Source: an uncultured Candidatus Poseidoniales archaeon (GTDB lineage: Archaea > Thermoplasmatota > Poseidoniia > Poseidoniales > Poseidoniaceae). Taken from it: DNA of 32,910 nt. Below are positions 6,301 to 32,910 of this stretch, piece by piece. A model generated the notes under the pieces. The model searched no databases. It was not told the origin of the DNA and worked only from the letters and a program-made list of their open reading frames with translations. The position numbers were made by a program, and so were the translations under genes. Location of the stretch: contig CAXHCG010000002.1 in assembly GCA_964014905.1 (NCBI GenBank), positions 1-32,910 on the forward strand, given 5' to 3'. Each line of letters starts with the position of its first letter. The stretch's first letter is position 1.

Positions 6301-7315
6301 ACAGCACCGTCTCGGCACCTTCGTCGGAGATGGCATCGCTGAGCAAAATCGAGGCGTTTTTGCTGTCCTGCCACATGGAATTGGTCGAAGGGAATGTGGG
6401 CACCTGACTTTGGTCTTGAAGCACCACATAGTCCCATGCAGTTCCGCGAAGCGTGGTGTTCCACTGGTTGCCTGTGGTGTTGACGTTGGACCAGTGCTGC
6501 GGGAGTTTCATGCCACCACCGTTGACCGAACTGACACTGGCGTTGATGTTGTCGGCATCGAGTACACCCTCGACCACCGAGGCAAGGTTGTTCGCGCTCG
6601 TGTAGCTGTTGCCCATCATCAAGATGGAAGCAGAGGATGCATTGGTGGCGTTGCTTCCGGTGCCGTTGTCGGATGAATTGCCGGAGTCGCCCGAGTTATT
6701 GCCGGATGAATTGCCGGATGTACCGTTGGTGTGATTGGCCCACCACGAAGCCAGATCGGGTTGAACCTCAACGTCCAACAGGAAGGTGTCGGTCACCGTT
6801 CCAAGATTGTGGCCCGTGAACGAAACATTGGTGCTTGCTCCTGCAGCCATGGCGATCAGCGGCGAGCCACCAACGGAAAGCGAGGGGTGGTAGGCAGGAG
6901 CCACAGAAACAAGAACGGTAAGGATTGAACTGACGCCGTTGTCGGGTTCAGAGACGTTCACGGCGAACGACCCGCTGTCAGCCACGGTGGCCCCTTCTGC
7001 AAGGCGAACGACCAGGGTCGTGTTTTTCCTCCACGTCGGAAAGACGTTGTCCACCGTGCTGTCAATCGGAACGACCGTCCAAGGCGAAGCTAAGTTGGTG
7101 TCATCCACTGAAACGTCGTACGATTCGATGGAGGAAGCGTTGTTTTCAATGGTTAACGTGAGGTTCATGCTTTGCCCCGGTTCCAAAACAGCATGCTGGA
7201 CATCAACGCTGAGCAGAATGGAGGCGTGAGCCGAAACGGGCGTTACCAACGGAGAGAGGCCCATGGCCATCAGCGCCAAGACACAAAACACCGCACGGCC
7301 TGCTCGGCTGGACAT
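3305..7315 (-). CDS. Large type-I surface protein: signal peptide, CARDB/NEW3-like beta-sandwich repeats, embedded SGNH/DUF4886-like esterase domain, C-terminal TM, acidic tail and zinc ribbon
   Basis: The ORF is open from 7432, but the ATG at 7315 gives a canonical signal peptide, MSSRAGRAVFCVLALMAMGLSPLVTPVSAHA. It carries many L-x-V-x-N-x-G-N type beta-sandwich modules. SGNH blocks are MGNSYT, DYVVLQDQS and SDGSHPS. The TM helix is ATLGVMAAGWLLAIVAVQLL, followed by RRSSRHK, an acidic stretch, and CPSC...CPQC. Confidence 0.88.
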   Translation of the reverse strand: MSSRAGRAVFCVLALMAMGLSPLVTPVSAHASILLSVDVQHAVLEPGQSMNLTLTIENNASSIESYDVSVDDTNLASPWTVVPIDSTVDNVFPTWRKNTTLVVRLAEGATVADSGSFAVNVSEPDNGVSSILTVLVSVAPAYHPSLSVGGSPLIAMAAGASTNVSFTGHNLGTVTDTFLLDVEVQPDLASWWANHTNGTSGNSSGNNSGDSGNSSDNGTGSNATNASSASILMMGNSYTSANNLASVVEGVLDADNINASVSSVNGGGMKLPQHWSNVNTTGNQWNTTLRGTAWDYVVLQDQSQVPTFPSTNSMWQDSKNASILLSDAISDEGAETVLFMTWGYRDGDSLNAFNNNFTAMQARLVEGYTRYAENISSAGNAVWIAPVGLAYKSVHDNVVANGDDPTVSGNLFYDLYTSDGSHPSLSGSYLAACVFHSTITGQTCAGSNDSTNLNASVKLALQEAADDTVFNQTTGMSYYPWETSGTAAFGLGSSVPTGWNIQWQQDELANIPAGGSAATTLSITVPADAAPDFYGYRLTIGSTNGNVTSSTIIVVEVEAEPSVATAFLRQDDVFLPGQSTPTGVQVTNTGNTALDIEWALSQQPSSGLSPCIGSLVSAQTNGLQPDGIDEVDIVVEVDEHADSTSQCGFRLTAAHHHGEGVVVLDVLDFAVNIDEAVNFSLVGPTNIVDIVPAVGANYEIRLANHGSDEATFFLDVSESSGLDTVLVSASGVMVAAGEVGTWTVNTKGDAALSGLLQQSFSSTYNGETTSLAVDINLLEVDGVELLPPSEDRVLITPGSSTSMSITLRNTGTSNLSLVPTLSGLPSDIDVAYDVLEIHVNRTTEQTVVLTFSAATGSTPGTSSASLTYQASEFDITYTFDIVIVDREEVSVNTVQSRLLASPSSVSNLILDVTNLGTASDVYVLEWTTESQGDWFEFTLSPTTFQLSSGSTQQVSIGVQERSVGAPENGVVYTLKVVSTTNSDVSDTVNLTVQPVTAGVNFTILAEVDEAKPGESVYGTVVLTNTGNTEDTFSITTVGVDCGLDVSVTVGPGLSTEPYGWSCVVPNDAAAGQRALSFRAVSSVRSNVVVELGELYTVEADWPSDSRVALSFADGRLSLGIDSSTSTVLTVSNLGNAEVSGTLDAFGQDTGLVVMDWKRMSDDVATSDFTLTSGSSVDFLLTITSNTARTATSEVVVRATSTGGGVLTSDESVPLPISLVGPELPPNGLALPLGVSVSQSATLGVMAAGWLLAIVAVQLLRRSSRHKDGHMDDESQEEDDESEEKELPELGYNECRMDDESKVACPSCEARLGVPRGSTPPFRFNCPQCGEKIRVVE

Positions 7316-7422
7316 GAACCGACCAAAGCGACGCTGTTCAAGAGACTTCGGGAGCAATGGCTCCACACGCCTCACGCTTTGCCCATTCGCAAGTTGGTGC
7401 GCCGCGGCTGAAAGACGAAGCG

Positions 7423-7429
7423 AATATTT
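7423..7429. promoter_or_regulatory. Near-symmetric TATA-like box AATATTT, possibly serving aspS (ATG about 31 nt downstream) and the divergent surface-protein gene
   Basis: This is the only AT-rich element between the divergent starts at 7315 (-) and 7457 (+). Its spacing to the aspS ATG fits a leaderless transcript. Confidence 0.35.
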
Positions 7430-7456
7430 CATGTTCTACGCCTCAGCCCCCGAAGC

Positions 7457-13630: not shown

Positions 13631-14749
13631 ATGGGCATCAAGCACAACACATTCTCTGCGGTTCAGCCCGGCATGCCCGGCTCAGGGATGTATCCGGAAT
13701 CGCCCCTTGGCGAGAAGGTCGAGGGCATACCCACCGGACGGGACGTTGATTGGGAGCCTCTTGTTGACTACCGTCGAAACGGGGTATCAGAGACCACCAT
13801 CCACGGCGCAGTTGCGTGGGCTCATGGCGACGAAGTTATCCACTCGTTTGGTGGCAACGTTCTTTGTTATGGCCGTTCAATGATGAAACCCTTCATGCTG
13901 AAGGCCTTCACCGAAGAATTGGATGACTGCTCATGGGAACAGAAAGCCATTTCTGTCGCCTCCCACAACGGGGACACCGAACACGTGGCGGCCGCACAAT
14001 CTTTGCTCACACAACCCGAGTGGCCGCTGATGCTTACGCCTCTTGATGTGCCACTGATCCAATTCGGACGACAAGTCCGACGGCCTCGTCGCTGGTTCCA
14101 CACCTGTTCAGGCGAGCACGCTGCTATTTTGCGAGGATGCCGGAAAAAGGGGTGGAACCGAGCGGGATACACCCTGCCCACGCACGAGGTCTTCCAAGCT
14201 TACCTCAACCAAATTCGCGTGTACCTCGGACCGGATTGGACCCCGCTTCGGATAGCGAAAGACGGGTGTGGCCTACCGACGGTGTCCAACACCGTTTCAG
14301 AACTTGCCCAGATTTATGCGGGACTGGTCCGAGACAAAGATGAGGACTGGATTTGGGAGGCCATGGTGCGCCATCCCGACCTTGTAGGGGGGTTCAATCG
14401 ACTCGATTCAACCGTCCTCAAGGCAGGAGAAGGGCGCGTCATCGCCAAAGAGGGCGCTGACGGGTTGCTCGGCCTTGCGATTGAACACCCCGATTATCCC
14501 AAAGGCCTCGGAATCGTCGTAAAAATCGCTCACGGATGGAACTCGCAAGCGACATGGTACGTGGCTCGGGCCCTTTTGGGTGTTCTTGGGATCAACCTCC
14601 GCAATCCCTATCCGCTCCATCGGCAAAAAGCATTCATCGTCCCGGGCATCGTACCAGACCACTATGTGGATGTTCTCGAAACCGTGCCAACATGGGACGA
14701 ATGGGACCCAGACCAAGACCGATGGAACTACGAGAGCGAGGTGGTGTGA
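13631..14749 (+). CDS. Asparaginase II family (PF06089-like) protein
   Basis: 372 aa. Motifs resemble Rhizobium-type asparaginase II: HGAVAW, RSMMKPFM, ASHNGDTEHV, HTCSGEHAAIL, KDGCGLPT and AKEGADGL. GGAGG lies 9 nt upstream, and the start is 1 nt after the LLM stop. Confidence 0.7.
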   Translation: MGIKHNTFSAVQPGMPGSGMYPESPLGEKVEGIPTGRDVDWEPLVDYRRNGVSETTIHGAVAWAHGDEVIHSFGGNVLCYGRSMMKPFMLKAFTEELDDCSWEQKAISVASHNGDTEHVAAAQSLLTQPEWPLMLTPLDVPLIQFGRQVRRPRRWFHTCSGEHAAILRGCRKKGWNRAGYTLPTHEVFQAYLNQIRVYLGPDWTPLRIAKDGCGLPTVSNTVSELAQIYAGLVRDKDEDWIWEAMVRHPDLVGGFNRLDSTVLKAGEGRVIAKEGADGLLGLAIEHPDYPKGLGIVVKIAHGWNSQATWYVARALLGVLGINLRNPYPLHRQKAFIVPGIVPDHYVDVLETVPTWDEWDPDQDRWNYESEVV

Positions 14750-20878: not shown

Positions 20879-22537
20879 TTGGCAAGAGATACCGTAGAAA
20901 GCATACTCAAAGGCGTCGCATCGGGAGACGCAAAGGGAGTCGCTAAGGAAATCAAAGGAACCCTCTCCAGAACGATAGGTCTCGCCACCCTGGTGATTCT
21001 CTCGTTGTCTTCGATGCTGGGCTCAGGTTTGTTCATTCTTCCTGCCTTTGCACAGGAAGTGGCAGGAGACGGTATGTGGTTTGCCTTTGTTTTGGCAGCG
21101 TCAGTGGTCCTCACAGGCGCCTTCTCAAAATCGGAACTCGCCAGTGCCATGCCCGAATCCGGTGGTGTTTACATCTACATGGAACGCACCTACGGCTCCC
21201 TCATGGGGACCATCAGTGGATTGGGCTTGTTTGCCTCGTTTATGCTCAAATCAGCGTTTGCTCTGATCGGTTTCGCCGCCTACCTCGAAGTGGTCACGGC
21301 CGCTCTTGACGTTGAGGTTAATCCGATTACGATGGCGCTGGTTCTCCTCACGTTCATCGTCATCATCAACATCACCGGCGTGAAGAAAATAAAAAAGGTC
21401 CAAACGCCAATTGTTGCAACAGCCGTTGGTTTCCTTCTCCTTCTGTGCATCATGGCCGTCCTGGGCGGTGATGCAGACTTCTCGCGACCCGTAACCAACA
21501 TTGACTATCTCAGTCCGGAAATGGGGACCGCAGCAGCCCTCGTGTTTGTGGCCTACTCCGGAGCCATCAAGGTTGGCGCAATCGGTGGCGAAGTGATGGA
21601 CCCTGAAAAAAACATCCCTCGAGGCATGTTCGCCTCGCTCTTGGTGGCAACCATCCTCTACGCAGGCGTTGCGTTTGTGATGGTATCGGTCCTCCCCACC
21701 GGATGGCACATGGACGACGGTCATGCAATTGAAAATCCAATCTACGTGTTTGCCGAACATGTGGGAGGCAGCACCATCGGCGTAATCGCTGCCCTCCTGG
21801 CCATCATTACGATGGCCTCAATGGCGCTTGCAGGTGTCTTGTCCGCCTCCCGGTTTCTTTTCGCCATGGCCAGAGACAACCTGCTTCCGTCCAAACTTGA
21901 AGACCTCAACCCAACCTATGAGACACCCCACTGGCCCATCATCATTACCGGATTGATGATGGCGACCGCCATTTTGACCATCGACGTCCACGCCATCGCA
22001 GAACTTGCGTCAGGGTTCAACATCATGGTGTTCGTTGCCATCAATGCCTCAGTGGTCGTGATGAGGCACGCTGGTCCACGGCACAACTGGAACCCACCTT
22101 ACAAATCCCCTCTTTACCCACTCCCTCAAATTTACGGTTCTGGAACCGGGATTCTTCTGCTGTGGCTCATCGGAACGAACGCCCTTATCGGAGCGGCAGG
22201 GGCCATCGGACTGGGCGTTGTCGTGTGGCTGGTGTACGGCCGCAAACACATCCTCGAGGAAGCACGCATCACGCCGTTTGCAACGTTCAAATCTCGCTTC
22301 ATAAATCCGACAAAAGAGGCGCATGAACGCTTCCTCACGGCGTTCCACTCAGCGGATATCGGCGGGAAAAACCACTTGACGCTCAGCGAATTTAGATCGG
22401 CCTTGACGCAAGGACTCGGAATGGACTTGGCACCGATGGAAGTTCGGATGTACTTTCACAAAGCGGATGCAGACGGAGACGGGGTCGTTGACATCGACGA
22501 GTTCCTCAATGCCATGGAACGCAATGAAGAGGAATGA
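20879..22537 (+). CDS. APC-superfamily amino acid/polyamine transporter with a C-terminal EF-hand pair
   Basis: 552 aa, roughly 12 TM helices, with an APC N-terminal signature (LSLSSMLGSGLFILP, SELASAMPESGGVYIYMERTYG). The cytoplasmic C-terminus carries a canonical EF loop, DADGDGVVDIDE. The TTG start is the only start-type codon before TM1. Confidence 0.85.
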   Translation: MARDTVESILKGVASGDAKGVAKEIKGTLSRTIGLATLVILSLSSMLGSGLFILPAFAQEVAGDGMWFAFVLAASVVLTGAFSKSELASAMPESGGVYIYMERTYGSLMGTISGLGLFASFMLKSAFALIGFAAYLEVVTAALDVEVNPITMALVLLTFIVIINITGVKKIKKVQTPIVATAVGFLLLLCIMAVLGGDADFSRPVTNIDYLSPEMGTAAALVFVAYSGAIKVGAIGGEVMDPEKNIPRGMFASLLVATILYAGVAFVMVSVLPTGWHMDDGHAIENPIYVFAEHVGGSTIGVIAALLAIITMASMALAGVLSASRFLFAMARDNLLPSKLEDLNPTYETPHWPIIITGLMMATAILTIDVHAIAELASGFNIMVFVAINASVVVMRHAGPRHNWNPPYKSPLYPLPQIYGSGTGILLLWLIGTNALIGAAGAIGLGVVVWLVYGRKHILEEARITPFATFKSRFINPTKEAHERFLTAFHSADIGGKNHLTLSEFRSALTQGLGMDLAPMEVRMYFHKADADGDGVVDIDEFLNAMERNEEE

Positions 22538-23027: not shown

Positions 23028-25628
23028 TTACTCATGACGAATCCACTCGCCTTCGGGTGTCACTTCCCAATATTGGAGTTCCTCGGAGACGTCGACGTAC
23101 CAACCTGTCTGGCCTTGGACAGTGGAGGGTGTTGCCTGCATCACGCCGATTTTGCCGGCTTCAAGTGCGAGATCCTTCATCGATTCAAGGGTCAAGCCAT
23201 GGCGCTCATGAAGGGGCGTGTTGTCCTCAACAGGTGATTCTACGATCTCGTCTTCATCCGCATCATCGTCGTACTCATCGTCATCAAAAGCGTCCTCAAG
23301 CCACTCCTCATCGGAAGCCTCTGCAGCCCTTCGGGTGAGGGTGATGAGAACGGCTAGAAGAAGAACGAGAAGGATGGCTGCCATGGTCATGGCGGTGTTG
23401 GTTGAACCGACCGCTCCACCGAGCAGAACCTCCTCAACATCGAAGAAGTTTTGAGCCAAAAGACCACTCCAACGGACCGTGCAAGAACGATCAGTGCCTC
23501 CATTTTGAATGTCAACCTCCCACGTACCGTTGGTGACGAAGCTGGTTGGTCCTGTTGTGCATGATACACTGGCGTTGGCCTTTGGAATGCTCAACGTGTT
23601 GCCGTATTCATCGGTCGCAAAAGCATTCAACAAAACGATGTCTCCTTCAGCGAGAATGGAGCGGCTTAGACTGGCTTGAATGCGAACAGGGGAACCAGGT
23701 TCAATGGTGAGTGGGATGGTGTGAACGGCACCTTCGTCTTCGAGAATGAGCGAATATGTTCCGACCTGTTTGCCGGTGAATTGCCAATATCCAAGTCCTG
23801 TAGGTGAGGCTGTCAATTCCCCAAACGAAGCGTTCAAGCTTGAGGTCACAGATACCGATTCGGCAACGTTGCCGTGGACGTCAACCACCTGAATAAAGAG
23901 GTCCTGCGGCAGTCCAGCCTTCACCACCAACCCCTCGTCAGCATCCGTGATCAACCCGTAAGCGTTGCCGGCCACGACCGTCAAACGAACGGTTGCAAAG
24001 ACACCGTCCGCATTCACTCGAATCTCATGACCGCCGACAGTCGTCGCCGTCCAGCGCCCGTTGTTGAGGAGCATCTCAAGGGTGATGTCATCACCGTCAA
24101 GGGTCCAATTGAGCGCAATGGAGTTCAGTTCGTTGGAGTAGGCATCGAAAAACATAGGATTCAGGTCCAAGGACCCGTCAGCCGGGACTCGGTCTCCTTC
24201 GCCTTCAAGCGTGATGAAGGCCAACCTTCCTGGCCGAACCTCAAACGATGCATCGGTCGTGAACATCGCCCCAGTGGCGTTGTCGAACCAACTTCCTTCA
24301 ATCCGCCATGATTGAACGCGCTCGGCTTGGAGGAGCGCATACGACGTATCGAGAACGAGTTCTTCCGTATCGCCCATGGTCGGTTCAATGGTCCCGTCAA
24401 CCACCCAACGGTTTCCTTTGATGTCCTCGGCTACAAGTTCGATCACAACCTGATCGCCTGCTGATGGATTCCGAGGTTCAAGTTGGAGCTTGATGTCAAT
24501 GGCCCTGCCATGGAGAACATCCAGATCCAACGAACTGCTCACCGTACCGTCCGTGCCCGTGATGGTCGCTGGACCGGTCGCAGACGGATTCCAGAACACA
24601 CGCTGATTCTCATCCACAGAAAGCCCTCCAGAAGAGGCCGTAAGAGCGTGAATCGAGGGTGAAACCATACCGATGTACCCGTTCACATCTCTTCGCTCAA
24701 ACATCAGTTCATAGGATTCACCGGCCAAAAATTCCGCTGGTGAATCAACCACCATGAGGGTAGAGGCAACAGCATCGCCGGGAATCACATGGAGTGTCGT
24801 GCTCCCCGTAATGTTGCCTGAAGAGACCGTTATCAGCCATCGACCGGTGTTCGTAGCAAGGTATTCACCCTGGGCATTGAACGAACCGTTTTCTGCAAAC
24901 CAAGACAGTGAACCAACCTTCGAGAGCGGCATGTCATAGCCGTTGATGTCAACAAGAGAGGGGCGAATCGTTTGCAGCGTTCCGGCTCTCACAACAAGGG
25001 GTTCATCGAACACAAAGGAGTGAGGAGCCCCTGCGATGACATCGATGGCCGCCCGAGATTCGAGTTGGTTGTAGCGCACCCGAGCTTGGACTTCACCGAG
25101 TTCTTCGGCCGTCCACGATGGTTGACCATGACCAGCGTAATCGCCGTTGATATCCCAAACCATGGATGATGGCCCAACCATGCGGTTTCCTCGTCCGTCA
25201 AGAACATCCGCAGTGAGGGTGGTTGGTTCCAAAACACCGACAGAACGTGTCGTAATCTCAATGGATGTGGGTACCCCTGGATTCACAGAGATGTTGGTAC
25301 TCGCTATCAAACCATTGTGTTCCGCTGTAATTTCAATCAAACCTGCCGACCAGGGGTAAAACAGACCGTCTTCGGAAATCGTCCCGTTGCTGACCGACCA
25401 AGACACGTCCCCGGTCAGCACGTTGTTGACCGGGTCGTAGATAATGGCCTCAAACAACACCACTTCATCGGCTGAGATGGAGGTTGGGGCAGCATCTATT
25501 ACAACACGGTCGGCAGTTCCTGAACGCATTGAAACGCTGGCGTCCCCCAAAAGTGAAGGCACCGTTGTTGACCATGTCCCGAGGAGGACAAGCCCAACAA
25601 GAACGGCGCAAGCCTTCGGGAACGACAC
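23028..25628 (-). CDS. Type-I surface protein with tandem Big_2-like Ig domains, C-terminal TM, acidic tail and a Trp-rich terminal motif
   Basis: 866 aa. GTG start with GAGGT 9 nt upstream, overlapping the stop of the giant gene. The signal peptide is MSFPKACAVLVGLVLLGTWS. Repeated units follow the Big_2 pattern ...DVSWSVSNGTISEDGLFYPWSAGLIEITAEHNG.... The TM helix is AMTMAAILLVLLLAVLITLT, followed by RRAAE, DEEWLEDAFDDDEYDDDADEDE, and a C-terminal GWYVDVSEELQYWEVTPEGEWIRHE. Confidence 0.87.
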   Translation of the reverse strand: MSFPKACAVLVGLVLLGTWSTTVPSLLGDASVSMRSGTADRVVIDAAPTSISADEVVLFEAIIYDPVNNVLTGDVSWSVSNGTISEDGLFYPWSAGLIEITAEHNGLIASTNISVNPGVPTSIEITTRSVGVLEPTTLTADVLDGRGNRMVGPSSMVWDINGDYAGHGQPSWTAEELGEVQARVRYNQLESRAAIDVIAGAPHSFVFDEPLVVRAGTLQTIRPSLVDINGYDMPLSKVGSLSWFAENGSFNAQGEYLATNTGRWLITVSSGNITGSTTLHVIPGDAVASTLMVVDSPAEFLAGESYELMFERRDVNGYIGMVSPSIHALTASSGGLSVDENQRVFWNPSATGPATITGTDGTVSSSLDLDVLHGRAIDIKLQLEPRNPSAGDQVVIELVAEDIKGNRWVVDGTIEPTMGDTEELVLDTSYALLQAERVQSWRIEGSWFDNATGAMFTTDASFEVRPGRLAFITLEGEGDRVPADGSLDLNPMFFDAYSNELNSIALNWTLDGDDITLEMLLNNGRWTATTVGGHEIRVNADGVFATVRLTVVAGNAYGLITDADEGLVVKAGLPQDLFIQVVDVHGNVAESVSVTSSLNASFGELTASPTGLGYWQFTGKQVGTYSLILEDEGAVHTIPLTIEPGSPVRIQASLSRSILAEGDIVLLNAFATDEYGNTLSIPKANASVSCTTGPTSFVTNGTWEVDIQNGGTDRSCTVRWSGLLAQNFFDVEEVLLGGAVGSTNTAMTMAAILLVLLLAVLITLTRRAAEASDEEWLEDAFDDDEYDDDADEDEIVESPVEDNTPLHERHGLTLESMKDLALEAGKIGVMQATPSTVQGQTGWYVDVSEELQYWEVTPEGEWIRHE

Positions 25629-25640
25629 TTCATCACGACC

Positions 25641-28600
25641 TCATTCTGAGTATTCTTGCCATTCCTCTTCGCCGGCAAGACGGAACCACCAGGTTCCTTC
25701 TTCGTCTTCCCACCATTCGGTTCCGTCTTCATCAACGTTGGTTTCAATGGCCTCTTCCTCAGGCTCGTCTTCGGAGTGTTCTTCAGGAGGAGGTCCGCTT
25801 GGTCCAGGGGCAGGACCACTTGGACCAGGGGCAGGACCGGATGGTCCCGGAGCAGGACCGGTGGGACCCGGTGCCGGACCCGTGGGTCCAGACGGACGAT
25901 CATCATCGTCGTCATAGTCGTCATCATCGTCCCAGTCGTCTAAACGGCCACCGCGCATGAACATCACACCCAGACCAAGAAGAACCAACGCCACAACACC
26001 GAGCAGCCCAGCGCCAACGTAGTACAGCGTACCACCGGCTTCGAAGAAGCCGGCGAGCGTGCCTTCAACGGTGATTTCTTTGTTCACCCGTTCGGCTCCA
26101 ACACTGACCGTGATGGTTTGTGGCCCGTCGTCAAGGGTCGTGATGGTCCAGAGGTCCGAGGAAGTCATCGTGGCTGTGGCGCGTCCTGTCGCTTCAACCT
26201 GAATGCTTCCAGGAACGGGAATCTCGTTGTCAAAGGCGTCAAAGGCTCGAATGCTGACATCAAGACTTGTGAGTTGTTCAAGCGATTCGGTGCTGAGATT
26301 TACGTCCAGCCGGGCAACGATGCTCTGTGCCGAGACGGTGATTTCGGTGGTCGAAACTGCTCCTCCAACGGCGTATTGCAAGGTGTGGACACCCGCAACT
26401 TGTGCGTCATAGGTGTACGTTCCTTCAGACGTAGTAATGATGCTTAGCGTCGGTACTACACCGCCGTTCTCGGTCCACTCGACGTCTTGTGCAAACTGAT
26501 TGCCGTCGGCATCGGTTCCCGTGACTTGAATGTCAACGCGGTCGCCTGCTGTGGGCGTCGCCAGCGAAACATCGGCCTCCACCGTTACCGCTTCTCCATG
26601 AAGAACGGTGATGGTGATGCCATCCGAGATGTTGAATCCGGTTCCGCTGATGGAATACGCCTCAATGCGCCATTCACCGACGGCCGATGCTTCCCATCGC
26701 ATGCCGTCAAGCAGCAACTGTGTCGTGATGTCTTGCACATCGCCAGTGTCCACGTTCACTTCCACCCACGTGAGTTCATCAGAAGCAATACGGTTGGTAT
26801 CGGTATCGTAGAGGTCAGAGAGGAAATCAACGGCGAAATCCGAAGTCAATTCAAACACGGCCCCTGTGGACCGATCCGGGTCATTGGCCGTCCCTTGGAT
26901 GCTTACCGTGTGAAGGAATCCATGGTCGACGGTCATGTTGATGCTGACGGCATGCACGGTGGTGCCGGCGTCATAGGTTGCTGTGAGCATGTAGGGCTCA
27001 TCGCTGGCAAAGTACGGCGTGAAGGTCGTTGAATCGCCGTTCAGCACCTCAAGGAAACTCGACGAATCACCCATGCCTGGATGGTCAAGGGTCCAATTAA
27101 CAACAATGGCCCATTGATTTCCTTTGGCGTCAATGGCGAAAACATCCGCCTCTAAGGTCTCGTCGGCCGTGAGGTCAAAGTGTGCCCAAGTCGAGATTAC
27201 ATCGTCAACCTCAAGCCGCAGTGTTTGGATTTCTCCCTTCACGACATCGATGGTGATTTGCGTCAAGGTGGTCTCATACCGAGCCTCAAGAATCTTTGAA
27301 CCGGTCTTCACCGGGTCCCAGATAGCGGGGGCACCCGGCGTTAACTGCCCGTCAGAGGTCTTGGTCCAGTTGTCTGCGGGCAAAACGACCGAGAGACGGT
27401 TGCCTCTCACGTCAACGCGTGTGGTGTTGATGTAGACGCGGTCGTCGGCCGTGATGGACGTTGAGGACGTGTTCAATTCGAGGTAGTCAATCGCACCGTA
27501 GCCGACGGTAATCTGCAATTCAGCCATGGCTCCGGAAACCGACGTCAAGTTCAGCCACCAAACACCGACGTGGTCGGGGAAATACTCCTGGTTCACTTCT
27601 GAATAATTTCCGTTGGTGGTCGTCCATGTCAAGTTGCCCGCACTGGATACGTCGAGGTCGTTGCCGAATTGGTCGTAAAGGTCAATCGTGATGGCACACC
27701 AGACACCGGCCGGAACCGTGCCTTCACAGCCACCCAACACAAAGTAGGCGGGGGAGCCGGGAAGAACGGTGATCGCCACATCAACAAACTCACCCGACGG
27801 TACATCGTGAGCGACGCGTACACTGTGAGCGCCTGCGGCGTAGGGCTGGAAGACTGAGCCAAGCATGCTTCCGTTGGTCGGTGTGAACAGAATGGGTTCA
27901 CTGAGCACCATGTTGCCGTGCTGGTCAACCATGTGCGCAGTTATTTCCAAGGTTTCGTCGGCCGTGATGGTAGCCGTCAGGGGTGAGACGACAAGCTCGG
28001 TCGGTGCGCCCGCTGTGACGGTGATGTTTTGATGACCGCACACCAACCCGAAACAGGACGTGATGGTCACATTGCCTGCGGAGTTTGGCGTAAACAATCC
28101 GTTGCTGCCAATGTTGCCAGAAGAAGAAGACCATGTCATCGGTGGTGCTTGCACCATCGAAAGGTGATCATACGCAACGGAATTGAAATTCACGGCGGTG
28201 TCGGCGTCGGTGGTCTGCGCCCCGGTCGGACTGATGGAAACACTGGTGATGTTTGTGGTGTTGAACAACACCTGAGGACGGTTTATGGTTGAGGTTCCGG
28301 AATAGAACGATGCGTGAGCGTATCCGGTGTTTGGCGTGGCGATGATGGTCCATGCTTGCTGATTGGTGATGGTCATGCCAAGCGTGCTGACGTCGAACCA
28401 AATCCAACCTTCTGTGTCAACGTTGACCACGGTGGTTGAAACCGCAGAAGCGTAATCCACGCCGGCTTGCATACCGGGAGCACCCCAGGTTCCACCTGCA
28501 GTCGTCCCGTTCCACGTTGCCGAGGCCTGGCCCCAATTTGCGTTTGTAATGGGATGGACGCTAAAGGACACCGAAGTAGCTCCTTGAACCGATTCCCATG

Positions 28601-31600
28601 ACTCAACGTAGAGGCCCAAGGAAGCGGAGTGAACGTTTTGGTACATGGGGAACGGGATTTGAGCGGCGTTCAAGGCGACGTTGATTCGGCACTCATCGGT
28701 CCAAAGCGTTCCACAATAGGTGCCCGTGCTGATGGTCGGTTCACCGGCAAAATTGGTGTTTGCATATTCGCTGTACAAGGCTGTGTCCTGAACGTTGGTG
28801 TGGCCAAAGGCCGCTACTTCATTCCCGGTTTGGAATTCGTAGGTGTAGGTGTAGTCGTTGTTGTATTGCTGATTCGGATCGCCGATAGCAAAACTCCATC
28901 GCGACGAGGAGGGCCCCGGGATGGACTGGTTCACGCCTTGGACCCACCATGAGAAGAGCTGCCCCTCGCTCAAGTTTCTGGCAAACCGGAAGGTGGTGTT
29001 GGTGATTTCGGAATCCTCCCATGAACGGAACTTGTACACACCCGTTTCGTTGGCGATGGTCACGATGTATCCGGTTGCTCCGCTCACCGGCGTCCATGAA
29101 AGGGCCGGCTGAGTTGAAGCGATGAGCAAACCGTTGGTCTCCCCGTAAAGGACCTCGCCATCGGCAGGGCTGTTGAGGGACGGCTGACCTGGCGGGACGA
29201 TGCCGTTCACGTTGTCGACGTAATCCAACACGAGGTGCGGCCGATAAGCTGGATTCGAATATTCCGATGAGTAGAAGCTGTGAGATGAACCCGTTGAGCC
29301 CACCATGGCGAGCATGAAGGTCATCGTCGTGTTCCCGTTTGCGATGTTGGATTGGGCGAGGCTTGTCAAATCCCATTCCATCCAACCAAACGGATTGGTC
29401 AATGTCAAGGTGGAGCGCGTGATTTCACTCGTTGAACACAGAGGTGCTGTAGCCCAGACCACGCTTGATTCTGTGAAGCCGCTGCAAGGGTAGGCGGCGA
29501 TCGTGGTGGAGGAGGTGCCGGAAACACCGGGCTGATACAAACGGAGCATCATTTGCGTCGGCGTCATGGCAGAGGGCCATGGAATGTTGGTCAAGTCAAA
29601 CTCCATGAGAACGCGGCTTTGACCGGTTCCCAGAGCGTTAATGCCAAGCACCATTGTGGTTGAACCGCCACGATTGACGGTGGCGTTGGAATCAATTTCA
29701 ACGTCGAGAACGGTGGGTAGCAATCCCGTGGTTTCAAAGATGGAACCGCGAGAAAGGTTCACTGTGTTGTTTCCGTTTCCATCATCGCTGCCTTGGTCGA
29801 CAGGGATCCGAAGTTTATTCACCGACGACCATTCTCCAATCCGGTCGCCCTGATCGGCACGAATCCGCCAATATTGCCACAAATCGCCCTTGTAGAGCTC
29901 AGCATCGTTGTAGGTGTTGTTGAGGAAGTCGAACGTGTCGTTGCCGTAGGCGCCCGACATGATTTCCTCGTGCGTCCAGCAGGTGGTGAGTTCTTCGTTG
30001 AGGAACCACGGATCGATACCGCCGCACGCTGCGATTTGAGTGTGATTTGAGTAGGTGAGATTCCAAGTGAAATCCGTGCTGTTCATTCCGGAAGGCAATG
30101 CTTTGGTCAAGTCCCAAAGGGTCGTGCCATCTGCAGGAAGGAGGCCGGTTGGTTGGCTTGGCGTCCATGCATCGATGGTTCTGTAGGTCAAGTTGAGCCG
30201 GGGGCGGAGGTCAATGGAAGTTGCATCGCTCGAAGCAAAGGAGACACGTCCTGCCACGCCGTTGTTCCGTTCCACCGGGAACAGAACGACATCAAGCTCT
30301 GCCGAATTGCGAGCCAGAGCGTGTTGGACAAGTCCTGTTACGTTGAAGGCAACCGTTCCAGAGCTGTTGACCCACTGAGCGGGGTTGAAGGGTACGTCAA
30401 AGTCGTCACCCGAATATCCACCGCTTGCAGCCCATGTTGAGTTGTTGCCTGCTGGGTAGGCGAACACCGAAGATTCACTCCACGCAGAGGTTGTTTCCCC
30501 AACAGCAATGAGCGTGGATTGGTAGGTATTGTAGGCGCTGAGTTCTAAACTGGCGTCTATAACTTCGTACGTCCCGGGGAGAGGGAGGCCACTGAAATCC
30601 ATGTTCAAGAGACTCATTGAGCGGAGATTTTGATTGCTGGTTGATACTGAACTTCGGCCCACAAAGAGGGCGGAGGATGAACCGCGGTTGGTGTAGATGT
30701 TTCCGGTATCGAGGTAGGTGTCGTACATCACGTTTGGATAACTGAGCGATGGCACGATGGCCCCTTCTTGGATTGAGAGGTTCGCATAGGTACTGTTGAT
30801 TTCTTCACCGAAGTCATTGGGGAGATAAAACACCGTGGACGTGCTTCTGGGTCCCAGCATGCCGTTGTTCATCGGTTGAACCATCCAGCGGATTTCTTGA
30901 GCGAAATCCAATTCCTGCGGGGGGGTAAATGTGCGATTGGTGACGTCGAAGTCGGCGGTTGCCACACGGGAATCATAGGTGTACAATCCTGCCATGTCAT
31001 CGTTGGCGTCAGCCTGCATGAACACGCGCCAGCCGGTGACTGTGGTCGAGCCGCTGTAGGTCCAACTGAAGGTTGGCAAGCGGTCAGCCATGAGGGCGTG
31101 AGAGGTCGTATCCCAGACGATGGCGGCGTTGTTTGGTCCTGCATTCACTCCGCTCACGGTTGGGGTTGCGACGGTTCCATCTTCCCAAACCAGCGTCAAG
31201 TAGGGACGCTCACTGGCGCTTCCTTCGGTGGATGTGAAGGTGATTTCGTCGGTGGTTTGGCTTGAAGCATAGACCATCAACGACACGTGATTGTGCCCCG
31301 CAGCGAGGGCGGCTTGAACGGCCTCGGTAACGTCAAAATCCATCCAGTCATCAGCAACACTGTCGACCAAGTCCACATAGCCACCCACGTCCGTACCGAT
31401 GCCTCGTCCACCAAGCTGATTCCAAGCGTTGGTGCCGTCGTAGGTTGTGCCGTTGGCCGATGTGGTCCAAGGTTGGAGGACGGGTCGAATGGCGACTGGC
31501 TCGTCTTCGATTGATCCGTACTCAGAAAATAAACTGAGTTCGGCGCCGGTAACACGAGCGCCAGCCGGCTGTGGAACTTCGTTTAACGGTATGCGAAGAA

Positions 31601-32910
31601 GCGCCGCTGCTTGGTATCCAGAAGACAATTCACCAACGCTTAGGGACGTTGAATTCTCGTAGGTGTTGTCCGACCCTGAACCGTTCTCGATGACGTAGGT
31701 GTCGACAAAATGCGGCGTATTGAGGTGTGGAAGAGCACCGTGATGACGCAATTCGACCGATGCCTTCGTTGCGTTGAACACCACCGTGTTCAAGTCGGGG
31801 AGTTGGAAGTGATAGGCGGACGACCAGTTGCCGATCTGATTGGTGGCTGAGACCGCACGAACGCGCCAATACCATGTGTTCCCATCGTCCAAATCGGATT
31901 GGAGTGAGAACGAGGCGTTCACAATGTCAAAGCCAGCGTCGTTCCACGAAGTATAGGTCAGGCTGTTCACCGAAGAGAAGTCACTCTGCGTATCGAGTTG
32001 TACAATGTAGCCCGTGAGCGCCATGGTCCCTGAAAAGGTCCATTCGAGTTCAGGTTGGGTGATGGGTGTGAGATCAACACCGGTGCCGATGGACCATGAA
32101 CCGTTCAGCGGCAGGGCCGGCGACGGATCGGACGGCAGGGCGTCCGATCCAGGGACGTAAACAAAGGAAAGTTCAGGGCGATTGGCCATGGAGTCTTCAG
32201 CCGTGCTGAAGTAAGCGGTCCGAGCACCACCCGAGCCAGCCCCGAGCATGCCGACAATGAAGTCAACGCGCCGGTCTTCCCGCATGGCGTTTTGAACGGC
32301 AAGCGTGACGTTCCACTCAACATCGTCACCTTCTGAATAGGAGGTGCCGACGCCGACACTGGCCAAAAGCGAGCCGCGCTCTGTTCCTTTAGCGCCTGCC
32401 GTGCCCCAGGAGTTTGAACCGTCATAGCTTCCCCACGTCGCATCCTCTGCGCTCCAGTCGTTTTGGTTGCTTTCCCAAACGCCGATGGTCGGAGAGCCGA
32501 ACGTGGTCGAGGTGAGCGACATCGACAGATGAGCGGACTCAACGGCGTAGCCGGTAGGGAGGAGGTTCGAGACCAAATTGCATCCAACCAAACCCGTGAT
32601 CTCGCCACCGAAGGGGCTGTAGTCAATCGTCAACTCTGAGTCACCGTCGAAATTGTCATTCGTTGCAGAACTGTCGATGTATGTGTCCATGCATTCAGGG
32701 TACTGGTTATCCTGTGAGCCGTTTCCATGCTTCAGCCTGAATTCGTAGCGGTCACCGCCCAGCCATATGCTCTCGAGAGAGGAGACCAAGAAACTGGAAC
32801 TTTCCCACGCCCCGTAGTGTCCGTCGCTGTCAACGGTGGCCATGCGCCAGAAGTACATGTTCCCAACCTCCAACGTTCGGTCGCCGGTCATGTCAAGGGC
32901 ACCATCGGAA
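25641..32910 (-). CDS. Giant surface protein, 5'-partial (more than 2,420 aa): 5 x [FN3-like + DNRLRE-like] supermodules, about 8 Big_2-like Ig domains, TM, poly-Asp, (GPxGPAP)5 and a Trp-rich terminal motif
   Basis: The frame is open to the window edge: upstream of the track's Met the codons read SDGALD with no stop. FN3-like strands YWRVRAVSATNQIGNWSSAYHFQLP recur five times. Each is followed by a module shaped like DTY..N......LLR..L..P.GA.V..A.L.L......W.E...TW......DVT..VQ....F.S.E...RP.L.L.Y. The TM helix is YYVGAGLLGVVALVLLGLGVMFM. Confidence 0.9.
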   Translation of the reverse strand, partial: SDGALDMTGDRTLEVGNMYFWRMATVDSDGHYGAWESSSFLVSSLESIWLGGDRYEFRLKHGNGSQDNQYPECMDTYIDSSATNDNFDGDSELTIDYSPFGGEITGLVGCNLVSNLLPTGYAVESAHLSMSLTSTTFGSPTIGVWESNQNDWSAEDATWGSYDGSNSWGTAGAKGTERGSLLASVGVGTSYSEGDDVEWNVTLAVQNAMREDRRVDFIVGMLGAGSGGARTAYFSTAEDSMANRPELSFVYVPGSDALPSDPSPALPLNGSWSIGTGVDLTPITQPELEWTFSGTMALTGYIVQLDTQSDFSSVNSLTYTSWNDAGFDIVNASFSLQSDLDDGNTWYWRVRAVSATNQIGNWSSAYHFQLPDLNTVVFNATKASVELRHHGALPHLNTPHFVDTYVIENGSGSDNTYENSTSLSVGELSSGYQAAALLRIPLNEVPQPAGARVTGAELSLFSEYGSIEDEPVAIRPVLQPWTTSANGTTYDGTNAWNQLGGRGIGTDVGGYVDLVDSVADDWMDFDVTEAVQAALAAGHNHVSLMVYASSQTTDEITFTSTEGSASERPYLTLVWEDGTVATPTVSGVNAGPNNAAIVWDTTSHALMADRLPTFSWTYSGSTTVTGWRVFMQADANDDMAGLYTYDSRVATADFDVTNRTFTPPQELDFAQEIRWMVQPMNNGMLGPRSTSTVFYLPNDFGEEINSTYANLSIQEGAIVPSLSYPNVMYDTYLDTGNIYTNRGSSSALFVGRSSVSTSNQNLRSMSLLNMDFSGLPLPGTYEVIDASLELSAYNTYQSTLIAVGETTSAWSESSVFAYPAGNNSTWAASGGYSGDDFDVPFNPAQWVNSSGTVAFNVTGLVQHALARNSAELDVVLFPVERNNGVAGRVSFASSDATSIDLRPRLNLTYRTIDAWTPSQPTGLLPADGTTLWDLTKALPSGMNSTDFTWNLTYSNHTQIAACGGIDPWFLNEELTTCWTHEEIMSGAYGNDTFDFLNNTYNDAELYKGDLWQYWRIRADQGDRIGEWSSVNKLRIPVDQGSDDGNGNNTVNLSRGSIFETTGLLPTVLDVEIDSNATVNRGGSTTMVLGINALGTGQSRVLMEFDLTNIPWPSAMTPTQMMLRLYQPGVSGTSSTTIAAYPCSGFTESSVVWATAPLCSTSEITRSTLTLTNPFGWMEWDLTSLAQSNIANGNTTMTFMLAMVGSTGSSHSFYSSEYSNPAYRPHLVLDYVDNVNGIVPPGQPSLNSPADGEVLYGETNGLLIASTQPALSWTPVSGATGYIVTIANETGVYKFRSWEDSEITNTTFRFARNLSEGQLFSWWVQGVNQSIPGPSSSRWSFAIGDPNQQYNNDYTYTYEFQTGNEVAAFGHTNVQDTALYSEYANTNFAGEPTISTGTYCGTLWTDECRINVALNAAQIPFPMYQNVHSASLGLYVESWESVQGATSVSFSVHPITNANWGQASATWNGTTAGGTWGAPGMQAGVDYASAVSTTVVNVDTEGWIWFDVSTLGMTITNQQAWTIIATPNTGYAHASFYSGTSTINRPQVLFNTTNITSVSISPTGAQTTDADTAVNFNSVAYDHLSMVQAPPMTWSSSSGNIGSNGLFTPNSAGNVTITSCFGLVCGHQNITVTAGAPTELVVSPLTATITADETLEITAHMVDQHGNMVLSEPILFTPTNGSMLGSVFQPYAAGAHSVRVAHDVPSGEFVDVAITVLPGSPAYFVLGGCEGTVPAGVWCAITIDLYDQFGNDLDVSSAGNLTWTTTNGNYSEVNQEYFPDHVGVWWLNLTSVSGAMAELQITVGYGAIDYLELNTSSTSITADDRVYINTTRVDVRGNRLSVVLPADNWTKTSDGQLTPGAPAIWDPVKTGSKILEARYETTLTQITIDVVKGEIQTLRLEVDDVISTWAHFDLTADETLEADVFAIDAKGNQWAIVVNWTLDHPGMGDSSSFLEVLNGDSTTFTPYFASDEPYMLTATYDAGTTVHAVSINMTVDHGFLHTVSIQGTANDPDRSTGAVFELTSDFAVDFLSDLYDTDTNRIASDELTWVEVNVDTGDVQDITTQLLLDGMRWEASAVGEWRIEAYSISGTGFNISDGITITVLHGEAVTVEADVSLATPTAGDRVDIQVTGTDADGNQFAQDVEWTENGGVVPTLSIITTSEGTYTYDAQVAGVHTLQYAVGGAVSTTEITVSAQSIVARLDVNLSTESLEQLTSLDVSIRAFDAFDNEIPVPGSIQVEATGRATATMTSSDLWTITTLDDGPQTITVSVGAERVNKEITVEGTLAGFFEAGGTLYYVGAGLLGVVALVLLGLGVMFMRGGRLDDWDDDDDYDDDDDRPSGPTGPAPGPTGPAPGPSGPAPGPSGPAPGPSGPPPEEHSEDEPEEEAIETNVDEDGTEWWEDEEGTWWFRLAGEEEWQEYSE
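25785..25895 (-). repeat. In-frame 21-nt tandem repeat, five copies, encoding GPTGPAP-GPTGPAP-GPSGPAP-GPSGPAP-GPSGPPP in the cytoplasmic tail of the giant protein
   Basis: Plus-strand units are aggaggaggtccgcttggtcc / aggggcaggaccacttggacc / aggggcaggaccggatggtcc / cggagcaggaccggtgggacc / cggtgccggacccgtgggtcc. The copies differ mainly at synonymous positions. Confidence 0.9.

What the first reader, a model, noticed from the sequence alone, without database searches (positions are those of the whole stretch)
25644..25724. A Trp-rich C-terminal mini-motif shared by the two co-transcribed surface giants
The giant protein ends in GTEWWEDEEGTWWFRLAGEEEWQEYSE. The adjacent 866-aa protein (23031..23111) ends in QTGWYVDVSEELQYWEVTPEGEWIRHE. 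Both fit T-x-W-[WY]-x-D ... [WY]-W-x-[RV] ... E-x-E-W-x(4)-E at the extreme C-terminus. Both are on the predicted cytoplasmic side, after a TM helix plus an acidic tract. The pattern looks like a three-stranded beta-meander and is reminiscent of WW domains or the GWY.D...YWDG..W DUF2510-type module; that comparison is from memory only. No PGF-CTERM, LPXTG or other known sorting tag is present. This could be an undescribed sorting or anchoring tag, or an interaction tag, for giant archaeal surface proteins.
Basis: partly seen in the sequence, partly recalled or inferred. Interest (0 to 1): 0.7.

Follow-up and report, generated by a model that had tools for sequence, protein, structure and literature searches.

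The report
Trp-rich cytoplasmic tail domains, Poseidoniales
Two neighbouring surface proteins of a marine Group II archaeon each end, inside the cell, in a tiny tryptophan-rich folded domain; the two domains belong to different families, and one of them recurs across the whole order on adhesin-like giants, integrin-like proteins, soluble proteins and a kinase, so it is probably an unannotated docking module rather than a sorting tag.

Summary
Both tails are at the stated coordinates and both are conserved domains. They are not one motif.

Tail A ends the giant (34 aa, 25644..25745). AlphaFold2 predicts a four-stranded beta-meander. It was found in 204 protein clusters and 336 loci of species-representative genomes; the named ones are Poseidoniales. 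In 134 of the best 148 clusters it lies within 5 residues of the C-terminus. Its hosts are about 3,000-aa CBM96 giants, FG-GAP/TSP3 proteins, a soluble 235-aa family and a TPR protein. In a membrane Ser/Thr kinase it sits internally, which fixes it in the cytoplasm.

Tail B ends the 866-aa protein (67 aa, 23031..23231). It is a helix plus a meander and is restricted to the giant's partner. That partner is a paralog of the giant's stalk and lies directly downstream of the giant in 51 of 52 assessable loci.

Pfam, NCBIfam and PDB profile searches, and Foldseek against the PDB, gave no significant match to WW, DUF2510 or sorting tags. The nearest resemblances are choline-binding hairpin repeats (58%) and single propeller blades.

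Best reading: these are cytoplasmic docking modules. The partners are unknown.

The parts
25641..32891 (-). Giant surface protein ORF, 2416 aa from the first in-window ATG. The frame stays open to the window edge at 32909, so the N-terminus is missing. Full-length orthologs are about 3,050-3,090 aa.
   Evidence: Pfam finds 5 CBM96 modules plus a disaggregatase-related repeat.
25956..26027 (-). Single C-terminal TM helix of the giant (LYYVGAGLLGVVALVLLGLGVMFM), followed by RGGR.
   Evidence: The preceding pre-TM motif is 80-100% conserved in most homologs (range 40-100%).
25746..25955 (-). Cytoplasmic linker of the giant: basic stop-transfer residues, an Asp-rich tract, a 7-aa GPAPGPS repeat (25785..25895) and a Glu-rich tract.
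   Evidence: Poorly conserved.
25644..25745 (-). Tail A domain, 34 aa: ETNVDEDGTEWWEDEEGTWWFRLAGEEEWQEYSE. Predicted four-stranded beta-meander made of two DGT-x-WW hairpins.
   Evidence: HMM span. AlphaFold2 pLDDT is about 90 over this stretch. W20, W28 and W38 are invariant.
25629..25640 (-). 12-nt spacer between the giant's TGA stop and the GTG start of the 866-aa gene. The two genes are probably co-transcribed.
   Evidence: No terminator-like site lies on the minus strand between the genes.
23028..25628 (-). 866-aa partner protein: signal peptide, Ig-like ectodomain, TM helix and cytoplasmic tail. It is a collinear paralog of the giant's membrane-proximal stalk.
   Evidence: BLASTP gives 25% identity over 679 aa, E 9e-31. 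It lies directly downstream of the giant in 51 of 52 assessable loci.
23337..23438 (-). Pre-TM motif VEEVLLGGAVGSTNTA (23391..23438) and TM helix MTMAAILLVLLLAVLITL (23337..23390) of the 866-aa protein.
   Evidence: The pre-TM motif is 90-96% identical across the family.
23232..23336 (-). Acidic cytoplasmic linker of the 866-aa protein (TRRAAEASDEEWLEDAFDDDEYDDDADEDEIVESP).
   Evidence: It is among the least conserved segments, 32-59% identity; only the N-terminal signal region is lower.
23031..23231 (-). Tail B domain, 67 aa: an alpha-helix (LTLESMKDLALEAGK) followed by a beta-meander (GVMQA...GWYVD...LQYWEV...EWIRH; meander at 23031..23144).
   Evidence: AlphaFold2 pLDDT 85.9, with H15-28, E43-46, E52-57 and E63-66. 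Conservation.

Best explanation
The two tails are small, independently folding, Trp-rich beta-meander domains on the cytoplasmic side of two paralogous, co-transcribed type-I membrane proteins of a Poseidonia (Marine Group II) archaeon. They belong to two different sequence families.

Tail A is a mobile C-terminal module found across the order. A flexible acidic, often Pro-rich, linker of about 100 aa tethers it beneath the membrane. The same module is attached to unrelated surface proteins, to soluble proteins and to a Ser/Thr kinase. It most likely acts as a protein-docking module that brings these proteins to a common cytoplasmic partner or to each other.

Tail B is a family-specific domain of the giant's obligate partner subunit and probably serves that complex.

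Shown: conservation, C-terminal position, host diversity and the conserved gene pair. Predicted or strongly inferred: the fold (AlphaFold2 only) and the cytoplasmic location. Inferred: docking as the function, and the giant/partner complex. Unknown: the binding partner.
For: Topology:
- Orthologs have an N-terminal signal or anchor.
- There is a single TM helix followed by RR / RGGR.
- There are 46 and 9 N-glycosylation sequons in the two ectodomains and none in the tails (weak evidence, since only 1-2 would be expected).
- Tail A ends proteins with no TM helix or signal: the 235-aa family and TPR protein P0156.
- In kinase P0187 (8-member cluster) tail A lies between a basic post-TM stretch and the Pkinase domain.

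Fold:
- AlphaFold2 gives pLDDT 82 for tail A, above 90 in the core, with all five models at 79.7-82.
- It gives pLDDT 85.9 for tail B.

Modularity and spread:
- 204 clusters at E<=1e-3 among 1.84 billion representatives.
- 134 of 148 have the module within 5 aa of the C-terminus, and the median cytoplasmic tail is 104.5 aa.
- 336 loci in species-representative genomes; the named ones are Poseidoniales.
- Hosts carry CBM96, FG-GAP, TSP3, TPR or Pkinase domains.

Selection: tail B's meander is 94% identical where the ectodomain is 65-79%.

Pairing: giant followed by a tail-B protein in 51 of 52 assessable loci, in both Poseidoniaceae and Thalassarchaeaceae. The partner is a paralog of the giant's stalk.
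Against: - No binding partner has been identified.
- The gene neighbourhoods of the soluble tail-A protein and of the FG-GAP protein are uninformative.
- The folds are predictions only, and neither matches a solved structure significantly.
- Within the giant family, tail A is only modestly better conserved than the stalk.
- The extreme acidity and Trp content would also fit binding of a small cation or a lipid headgroup.
- The strict C-terminal position is not explained by a generic docking role.
Confidence: 0.55

Rival explanations
1. Homotypic assembly. Tail A is a single blade-like or hairpin-repeat unit that cannot bury its aromatic faces alone. It would stack with other tail A copies in trans into a ring or sheet, clustering giants, integrin-like proteins, the soluble 235-aa protein, the TPR protein and the kinase under the membrane without any separate reader protein.
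For: - The best Foldseek matches are single blades of oligomerising Pizza propellers and of the PknD NHL propeller (TM 0.64, rmsd 1.1-1.2 A over 32 residues).
- Adjacent WW / WY pairs in the strands place aromatic residues on both faces (inferred).
- The same module occurs on many otherwise unrelated proteins, including soluble ones.
- The VDEDGxEW part partly matches an FG-GAP blade loop.
Against: - The Foldseek E-values are 0.5 or worse, and any four-stranded meander resembles a blade.
- No protein with tandem tail A copies was found.
- A net charge of about -12 per module disfavours self-association without counter-ions.
- No multimer prediction was possible.
Confidence: 0.15
2. Aromatic-cage ligand binding. 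Tail A is a cytoplasmic derivative of choline-binding-type hairpin repeats and would bind a cationic small group, such as a quaternary ammonium or amine lipid headgroup, a polyamine or a methylated residue, through Trp cages flanked by acidic residues.
For: - The tail A profile picks up Choline_bind_4 proteins with 10-11 matched repeats each (E 2.7e-7 and 1.5e-6).
- hhalign of tail A against a double choline-binding repeat gives probability 58%, P 1e-4, over GtWwYRxxGxxdW ~ GTWYYVKNGKIDW.
- Trp together with Asp/Glu suits cation binding (inference).
Against: - Pfam's own choline-binding models do not hit any tail at E<=10.
- Only two hairpins are present, whereas known binding sites need arrays.
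- Known repeats of this type are extracellular.
- The similarity covers 17 columns.
Confidence: 0.1
3. Sorting, processing or secretion tag. The strictly C-terminal module would be recognised by dedicated machinery (sortase-like, export or quality control) and would determine surface display of the giants.
For: - Strict C-terminal position: 2-3 residues before the stop codon in all 80 loci, and 134 of 148 clusters.
- It is enriched on large surface proteins.
Against: - Known tags have a motif, a TM helix and a short basic tail. Here the module is about 105 aa beyond the TM helix.
- No NCBIfam or Pfam tag model matches.
- The module ends proteins with no signal peptide or TM helix and is internal in a kinase.
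- No conserved neighbouring processing enzyme was seen.
Confidence: 0.07
4. One family after all. Tails A and B would be divergent descendants of a single ancestral tail of a duplicated stalk-TM-tail unit.
For: - The 866-aa protein is a collinear paralog of the giant's stalk (E 9e-31), so the tails are positionally equivalent.
- Both are predicted C-terminal beta-meanders with W ... aromatic-W ... G-x-W spacing.
Against: - hhalign gives 0.8-1.4%, and its best match is out of register.
- The pairwise score gives p=0.23 against shuffles.
- The HMMs do not cross-detect.
- Tail B has an extra helix and a GVMQA strand that tail A lacks.
- The BLASTP alignment of the paralogs ends before the TM helix.
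Confidence: 0.3
5. Chance resemblance or low-complexity debris with no function.
For: The composition is strongly biased (15% Trp and about 40% Asp/Glu in tail A), and the A-to-B similarity itself is at chance level.
Against: Each tail is conserved across the order with invariant residues, is confidently predicted to fold, and tail A is shuffled among unrelated host proteins.
Confidence: 0.02

Closest known systems
Choline-binding / cell-wall-binding hairpin repeats (Pfam PF21540 Choline_bind_4; CW_binding type)
   Same: Both have a roughly 20-aa beta-hairpin unit with the pattern G-T-W-[WY]-Y-x-x-x-G-x-x-[DE]-W. The tail A profile hits such proteins, and hhalign gives 58% probability over one hairpin. 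Tail A itself looks like two such hairpins (DGTEWW / DGTWWY).
   Different: Tail A has only two hairpins rather than long arrays. It is cytoplasmic and C-terminal rather than extracellular, and it is extremely acidic. Pfam's models do not recognise it. No ligand is known.
Single beta-propeller blades (PknD NHL repeat, designed Pizza proteins)
   Same: Four-stranded antiparallel meander of about 32 residues. This is the best Foldseek match, with TM 0.64 (query-normalised) and rmsd 1.1-1.2 A.
   Different: The match is not significant (E 0.5). Tail A is one isolated unit at a C-terminus, not part of a closed propeller. Trans-assembly is untested.
WW domain (PF00397)
   Same: A small Trp-containing antiparallel beta-sheet module of about 35 aa on a flexible linker. 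It is a plausible functional analogue as a docking module, and the giant's linker is Pro-rich.
   Different: No HMM, PDB-profile or Foldseek match. Tail A has four strands rather than three. Its invariant Trp residues are spaced 8 and 10 apart, whereas in WW domains (recalled from memory, not tested) they are 20-22 apart, and the WW Pro signature is absent.
DUF2510 (PF10708), GWYPDP...RYWDG..W module
   Same: Tail B's GWYVD...YWEV...GEW resembles this pattern as recalled from memory. P0103 has GWYADAAGNPSYWQVNADGSW.
   Different: None of 31 tail B sequences matches the Pfam model at E<=10. Tail B has an added helix and a GVMQA strand.
C-terminal sorting signals (PGF-CTERM/archaeosortase, LPXTG, PEP-CTERM, GlyGly-CTERM)
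   Same: Located at the extreme C-terminus of large surface proteins, with a TM helix nearby.
   Different: Those signals consist of a motif, a TM helix and a few basic residues. Here a 65-274 aa cytoplasmic region with a folded domain follows the TM helix. There are no model hits, and the module also occurs on soluble proteins.
Cytoplasmic tails of integrins and cadherins (functional analogy only)
   Same: Type-I adhesion-type proteins, some with FG-GAP and TSP3 repeats, carry short cytoplasmic tails that could recruit adaptors and kinases.
   Different: There is no sequence or structural relationship. The partners and the signalling are hypothetical here.

Membership tests
WW domain (PF00397) | Match to the family HMM | tested here: not met
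   No WW hit at E<=10 for either window tail, nor for the 28 tail A and 31 tail B sequences.
WW domain (PF00397) | Three-stranded sheet with two signature Trp residues 20-22 residues apart and a C-terminal Pro (feature recalled from memory) | tested here: not met
   Tail A is predicted with four strands, and its invariant Trp residues are at positions 20, 28 and 38. Tail B has Trp at 44, 55 and 63 plus a helix. Neither has a conserved Pro after the last Trp.
WW domain (PF00397) | Structural or sequence similarity to solved WW domains | tested here: not met
   Profile searches of the PDB gave no WW hit. No WW domain appears among the top 50 Foldseek hits for either model.
WW domain (PF00397) | Binds Pro-rich peptides | not testable with these tools
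   The giant's linker carries GPAPGPS repeats, but many tail A hosts lack them.
DUF2510 (PF10708) | Match to the family HMM | tested here: not met
   No hit at E<=10 in any tail B or tail A sequence. HMMER's filters may drop matches above about 0.1.
Choline-binding repeats (PF21540 / CW_binding) | Match to the family HMM | tested here: not met
   No Pfam hit on the tails.
Choline-binding repeats (PF21540 / CW_binding) | Profile-level similarity of the hairpin unit | tested here: inconclusive
   The tail A profile hits P0234 and P0264 (Choline_bind_4, 10-11 stretches each, E 2.7e-7 and 1.5e-6). hhalign gives 58% probability over 17 columns.
Choline-binding repeats (PF21540 / CW_binding) | Tandem arrays of many repeats on extracellular proteins | tested here: not met
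   Tail A has two hairpins only and is cytoplasmic.
Beta-propeller blade | Four-stranded meander that superposes on a blade | tested here: inconclusive
   TM 0.64, rmsd 1.1-1.2 A over 32 residues, but E 0.5.
Beta-propeller blade | Closure into a multi-blade ring | not testable with these tools
   No multimer prediction is available, and no tandem copies were found.
Archaeosortase/sortase-type C-terminal sorting signals (PGF-CTERM, LPXTG, PEP-CTERM) | Signature motif, then a TM helix, then a short basic tail at the very C-terminus, recognised by NCBIfam models | tested here: not met
   No NCBIfam hit on the 866-aa protein or on the last 1000 aa of the giant. The TM helix ends 102-104 aa before the stop codon.

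The most novel reading that the evidence does not exclude
Tail A is a lone hairpin-repeat or propeller-blade unit that assembles in trans. This would create a sub-membrane hub that physically couples giant polysaccharide-binding adhesins, integrin-like FG-GAP proteins, a soluble adaptor, a TPR protein and a Ser/Thr kinase. That would be an archaeal analogue of an adhesion-signalling complex in the uncultured, globally abundant Marine Group II archaea. Tail B would lock the giant to its paralogous partner subunit.
Probability: 0.12. Interest if true: 0.8.

Novelty: new variant of a known kind. Interest (0 to 1): 0.48.

Why it matters
Poseidoniales (Marine Group II) are among the most abundant archaea in the surface ocean and remain uncultured. 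How their cells attach to particles and algal polymers, and how they sense them, is unknown.

Tail A is a lineage-wide, unannotated cytoplasmic module shared by CBM96-bearing giants, integrin-like proteins, soluble proteins and a kinase. It gives a concrete and testable handle on how surface binding could be coupled to the cell interior. A 34-aa peptide can be synthesised, its structure solved and used as bait.

The work also defines two candidate new domain families for the databases, and a conserved giant/partner gene pair whose partner is a paralog of the giant's stalk.

Tried and rejected
- One shared motif: rejected by the shuffle test (p=0.23), by hhalign (0.8% and 1.4%) and by the lack of HMM cross-detection.
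- WW, DUF2510, SHOCT or any other Pfam or NCBIfam family: no hit at E<=10 or E<=1.
- Weak hits judged spurious. These were the Pro_Al_protease prodomain on tail B (best E 0.0067, below cut-off), the SHANK3 SH3 domain (E 0.2), and sliding clamp on the soluble protein (E 0.036).
- Foldseek of the tail B model against the PDB: nothing at E<=0.001.
- Stand-alone 36-70 aa tail A mini-proteins: the one examined is a fragment of a frameshifted giant at a contig end. The third homolog search with the tail alignment returned only such fragments.
- Stop-codon read-through from the giant into the partner. The ORFs are in frame in the window and in many loci, but out of frame in others, and the partner has its own signal peptide.
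- Neighbourhood clues to a reader protein: none around the soluble tail-A gene or the FG-GAP gene.
- Viral contigs: no tail A relatives.
- Literature: four full-text searches found nothing describing these tails.
Full report
**Observation**

The window encodes two adjacent ORFs on the minus strand. One is 866 aa (23028..25628). The other is a giant ORF (25641..32891) whose frame remains open to the window edge, so its N-terminus is missing. A relaxed Trp pattern matches only these two places in the six-frame translation.

Both proteins have one TM helix near the C-terminus. It is followed by basic residues (RR / RGGR), an acidic tract and then the Trp-rich end. The genes are 12 nt apart, with no terminator-like site on their strand between them. 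Names attached to close homologs place the window in Poseidonia (Poseidoniales, Marine Group II).

**Are the tails real, and are they one motif?**

Each tail is strongly conserved.
- In 99 full-length relatives of the 866-aa protein, the terminal meander keeps 94% identity where the ectodomain has dropped to 65-79%, and 68% where the ectodomain is 49%. The acidic linker falls to 32-59%.
- Relatives of the giant keep xRVDEDGTEWxEDExGTWWYRxxGxEEWxEWxE, with three invariant Trp residues, down to 26-28% stalk identity.

The similarity between the two tails is at chance level.
- hhalign gives 0.8% probability, and 1.4% with 173 tail A and 93 tail B sequences. Its best match pairs hairpin 1-2 of one tail with hairpin 2-3 of the other.
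- HMMs built from each family do not detect the other.

I therefore treat them as two families, tail A (giant) and tail B (866-aa protein).

One caveat applies. The 866-aa protein is a collinear paralog of the giant's membrane-proximal stalk (25% identity over 679 aa, E 9e-31). The tails are therefore positionally equivalent and could be divergent homologs. That cannot be shown with the present data.

**Anatomy**

AlphaFold2 was run with family alignments.
- Tail A is predicted as four short antiparallel strands, with pLDDT around 90 from residue 11 of the 43 modelled. All five models agree (79.7-82).
- Tail B, modelled as 67 residues, is predicted as a helix followed by a three- to four-stranded meander (pLDDT 85.9).
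- Tail A reads as two similar hairpins, DGTEWW and DGTWWY.

**Distribution of tail A**

- A profile search of 1.84 billion representative proteins found 204 clusters at E<=1e-3. Of the best 148, 134 have the module within 5 residues of the C-terminus.
- Among proteins of at least 200 aa, 50 have a TM helix a median of 104.5 aa upstream, and 5 have none.
- A scan of species-representative genomes found 336 loci. In the 80 loci retrieved, the module always ends 2-3 residues before the stop codon.

Hosts of tail A:

| Host | Evidence |
|---|---|
| About 3,000-aa giants with CBM96 (named 'DNRLRE domain' by NCBI) | |
| 1,170-1,530-aa proteins with FG-GAP and TSP3 repeats | |
| A soluble acidic family of about 235 aa starting MAKKKGxxGKFLGAIAGSPYERLL, in at least 21 of the 80 loci | |
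| A soluble TPR protein | |
| A polytopic membrane Ser/Thr kinase (8-member cluster), with the module internal, between a basic post-TM segment and the kinase domain | |

The kinase and the soluble hosts fix the module in the cytoplasm. All named members are Poseidoniales and are annotated as hypothetical proteins or only for their ectodomain. No relatives were found in viral contigs.

**Distribution of tail B**

Tail B occurs only on the protein encoded directly downstream of a giant. This holds in 51 of 52 assessable loci, including diverged Thalassarchaeaceae-type versions such as GVMQAIPGTEQGATGWYVDANATVQHWTVGEDGSWTKTQA. It also occurs on a few paralogs (P0103, and a second copy in L078). 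The FG-GAP protein that carries tail A has no such partner.

**Comparison with known families**

- Pfam at E<=10 and NCBIfam at E<=1 give no credible hit on either tail, and none of the 59 aligned tail sequences hits WW or DUF2510.
- PDB profile searches give no significant hit.
- Foldseek of the tail B model finds nothing.
- Foldseek of the tail A model finds single propeller blades as its best matches (Pizza designs and the PknD NHL propeller; TM 0.64, rmsd 1.1-1.2 A over 32 residues). At E 0.5 this only says 'four-stranded meander'.
- The only sequence-level link is to choline-binding hairpin repeats. The tail A profile hits two Choline_bind_4 proteins through 10-11 repeats each. hhalign against a double repeat gives 58% probability over 17 columns.
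- Sorting-tag membership fails on architecture and on model searches.

**Mechanism**

The pattern is that of a modular interaction domain. It is a small, autonomously folding unit on a long flexible linker, shuffled among unrelated membrane, soluble and kinase proteins of one lineage, and always cytoplasmic.

I therefore read tail A as a docking module that brings these proteins to a common cytoplasmic partner or to one another. I read tail B as a dedicated domain of the giant's partner subunit. The conserved gene pair and the stalk paralogy make a giant/partner complex likely (inference).

The rival readings are homotypic blade-like assembly, aromatic-cage binding of a cationic ligand, and a sorting or processing tag. 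They are ranked in the rivals section. The data cannot yet separate the first two from a reader-protein model. A sorting tag is disfavoured, and chance is excluded for each tail individually.

**Novelty**

I found no database model and no paper describing either domain. The kind of feature, a small aromatic beta-hairpin adaptor on a cytoplasmic tail, is familiar. The family, its strict C-terminal placement, its restriction to this lineage and its range of hosts are new.

Noticed in passing
window 23031..25628 versus 25644..28643 (minus strand): The 866-aa protein is a collinear paralog of the giant's membrane-proximal stalk (25% identity over 679 aa, E 9e-31). The pair therefore looks like a giant plus a duplicated short subunit.
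   Followed up: partly
window 3305..7432 (minus strand); tail about 3308..3540: A third large surface protein (1375 aa; DUF4886 and Ig-like domains) has the same layout of TM helix, RRSSRHK and an acidic tract, but it ends in a CPSC...CPQC zinc-ribbon instead of a Trp-rich module. This suggests that small cytoplasmic end-domains are a general design in this organism.
   Followed up: partly
window 23391..23438, and the 10 residues before 26027: The segments just outside the TM helices (GGAVGSTNTA in the 866-aa family, FFEAGGTLYY-type in the giants) are the most conserved parts of both proteins. They reach 90-96% in the 866-aa family and 80-100% in most giant homologs (range 40-100%). They may be a subunit contact or a processing site.
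   Followed up: partly
window 25785..25895 (minus strand): The giant's cytoplasmic linker contains a 21-nt / 7-aa GPAPGPS repeat with about 4.6 copies. The copy number varies among orthologs, and NCBI names one homolog 'collagen-like protein'.
   Followed up: partly
window 25641..32909: The giant ORF runs off the window edge, and a second public contig breaks at the same point (L081). Full-length orthologs are about 3,050-3,090 aa. The in-window part carries 5 CBM96 modules and a disaggregatase-related repeat, which suggests polysaccharide binding.
   Followed up: partly
window 20879..22537 (plus strand): An amino-acid permease is fused to a C-terminal pair of EF-hands, suggesting Ca2+-regulated transport. 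The syntenic permease in L082 (471 aa) lacks the EF-hands.
   Followed up: no
window 13631..14749 (plus strand): The asparaginase-II-type ORF ends in another Trp-rich acidic stretch (VPTWDEWDPDQDRWNYESEVV). It matches neither tail HMM.
   Followed up: partly
L085 7001..9904 and neighbours; L086: The membrane Ser/Thr kinase with an internal tail A module lies next to a second kinase, a VWA-domain protein and a protein of more than 1,082 aa. This may be a signalling cluster.
   Followed up: partly
L027 and L059: Contigs binned as Verrucomicrobiales and Salinimicrobium MAGs carry the archaeal giant/partner pair with typical tails. They are probably mis-binned Poseidoniales contigs.
   Followed up: no
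P0156 residues 1-25: The TPR protein that ends in tail A also begins with a Trp-rich hairpin-like motif (SSPDGKWLWTGSEWIPAPP), which resembles the DUF2510-type pattern as recalled from memory.
   Followed up: no
L008 and L018 (same MAG, SD4486_NP_concoct_bins.tsv.099_sub): One MAG carries two distinct giant/partner pairs, one of them with a Ser-rich extension after tail B. This reflects either two paralogous pairs or a mixed bin.
   Followed up: no
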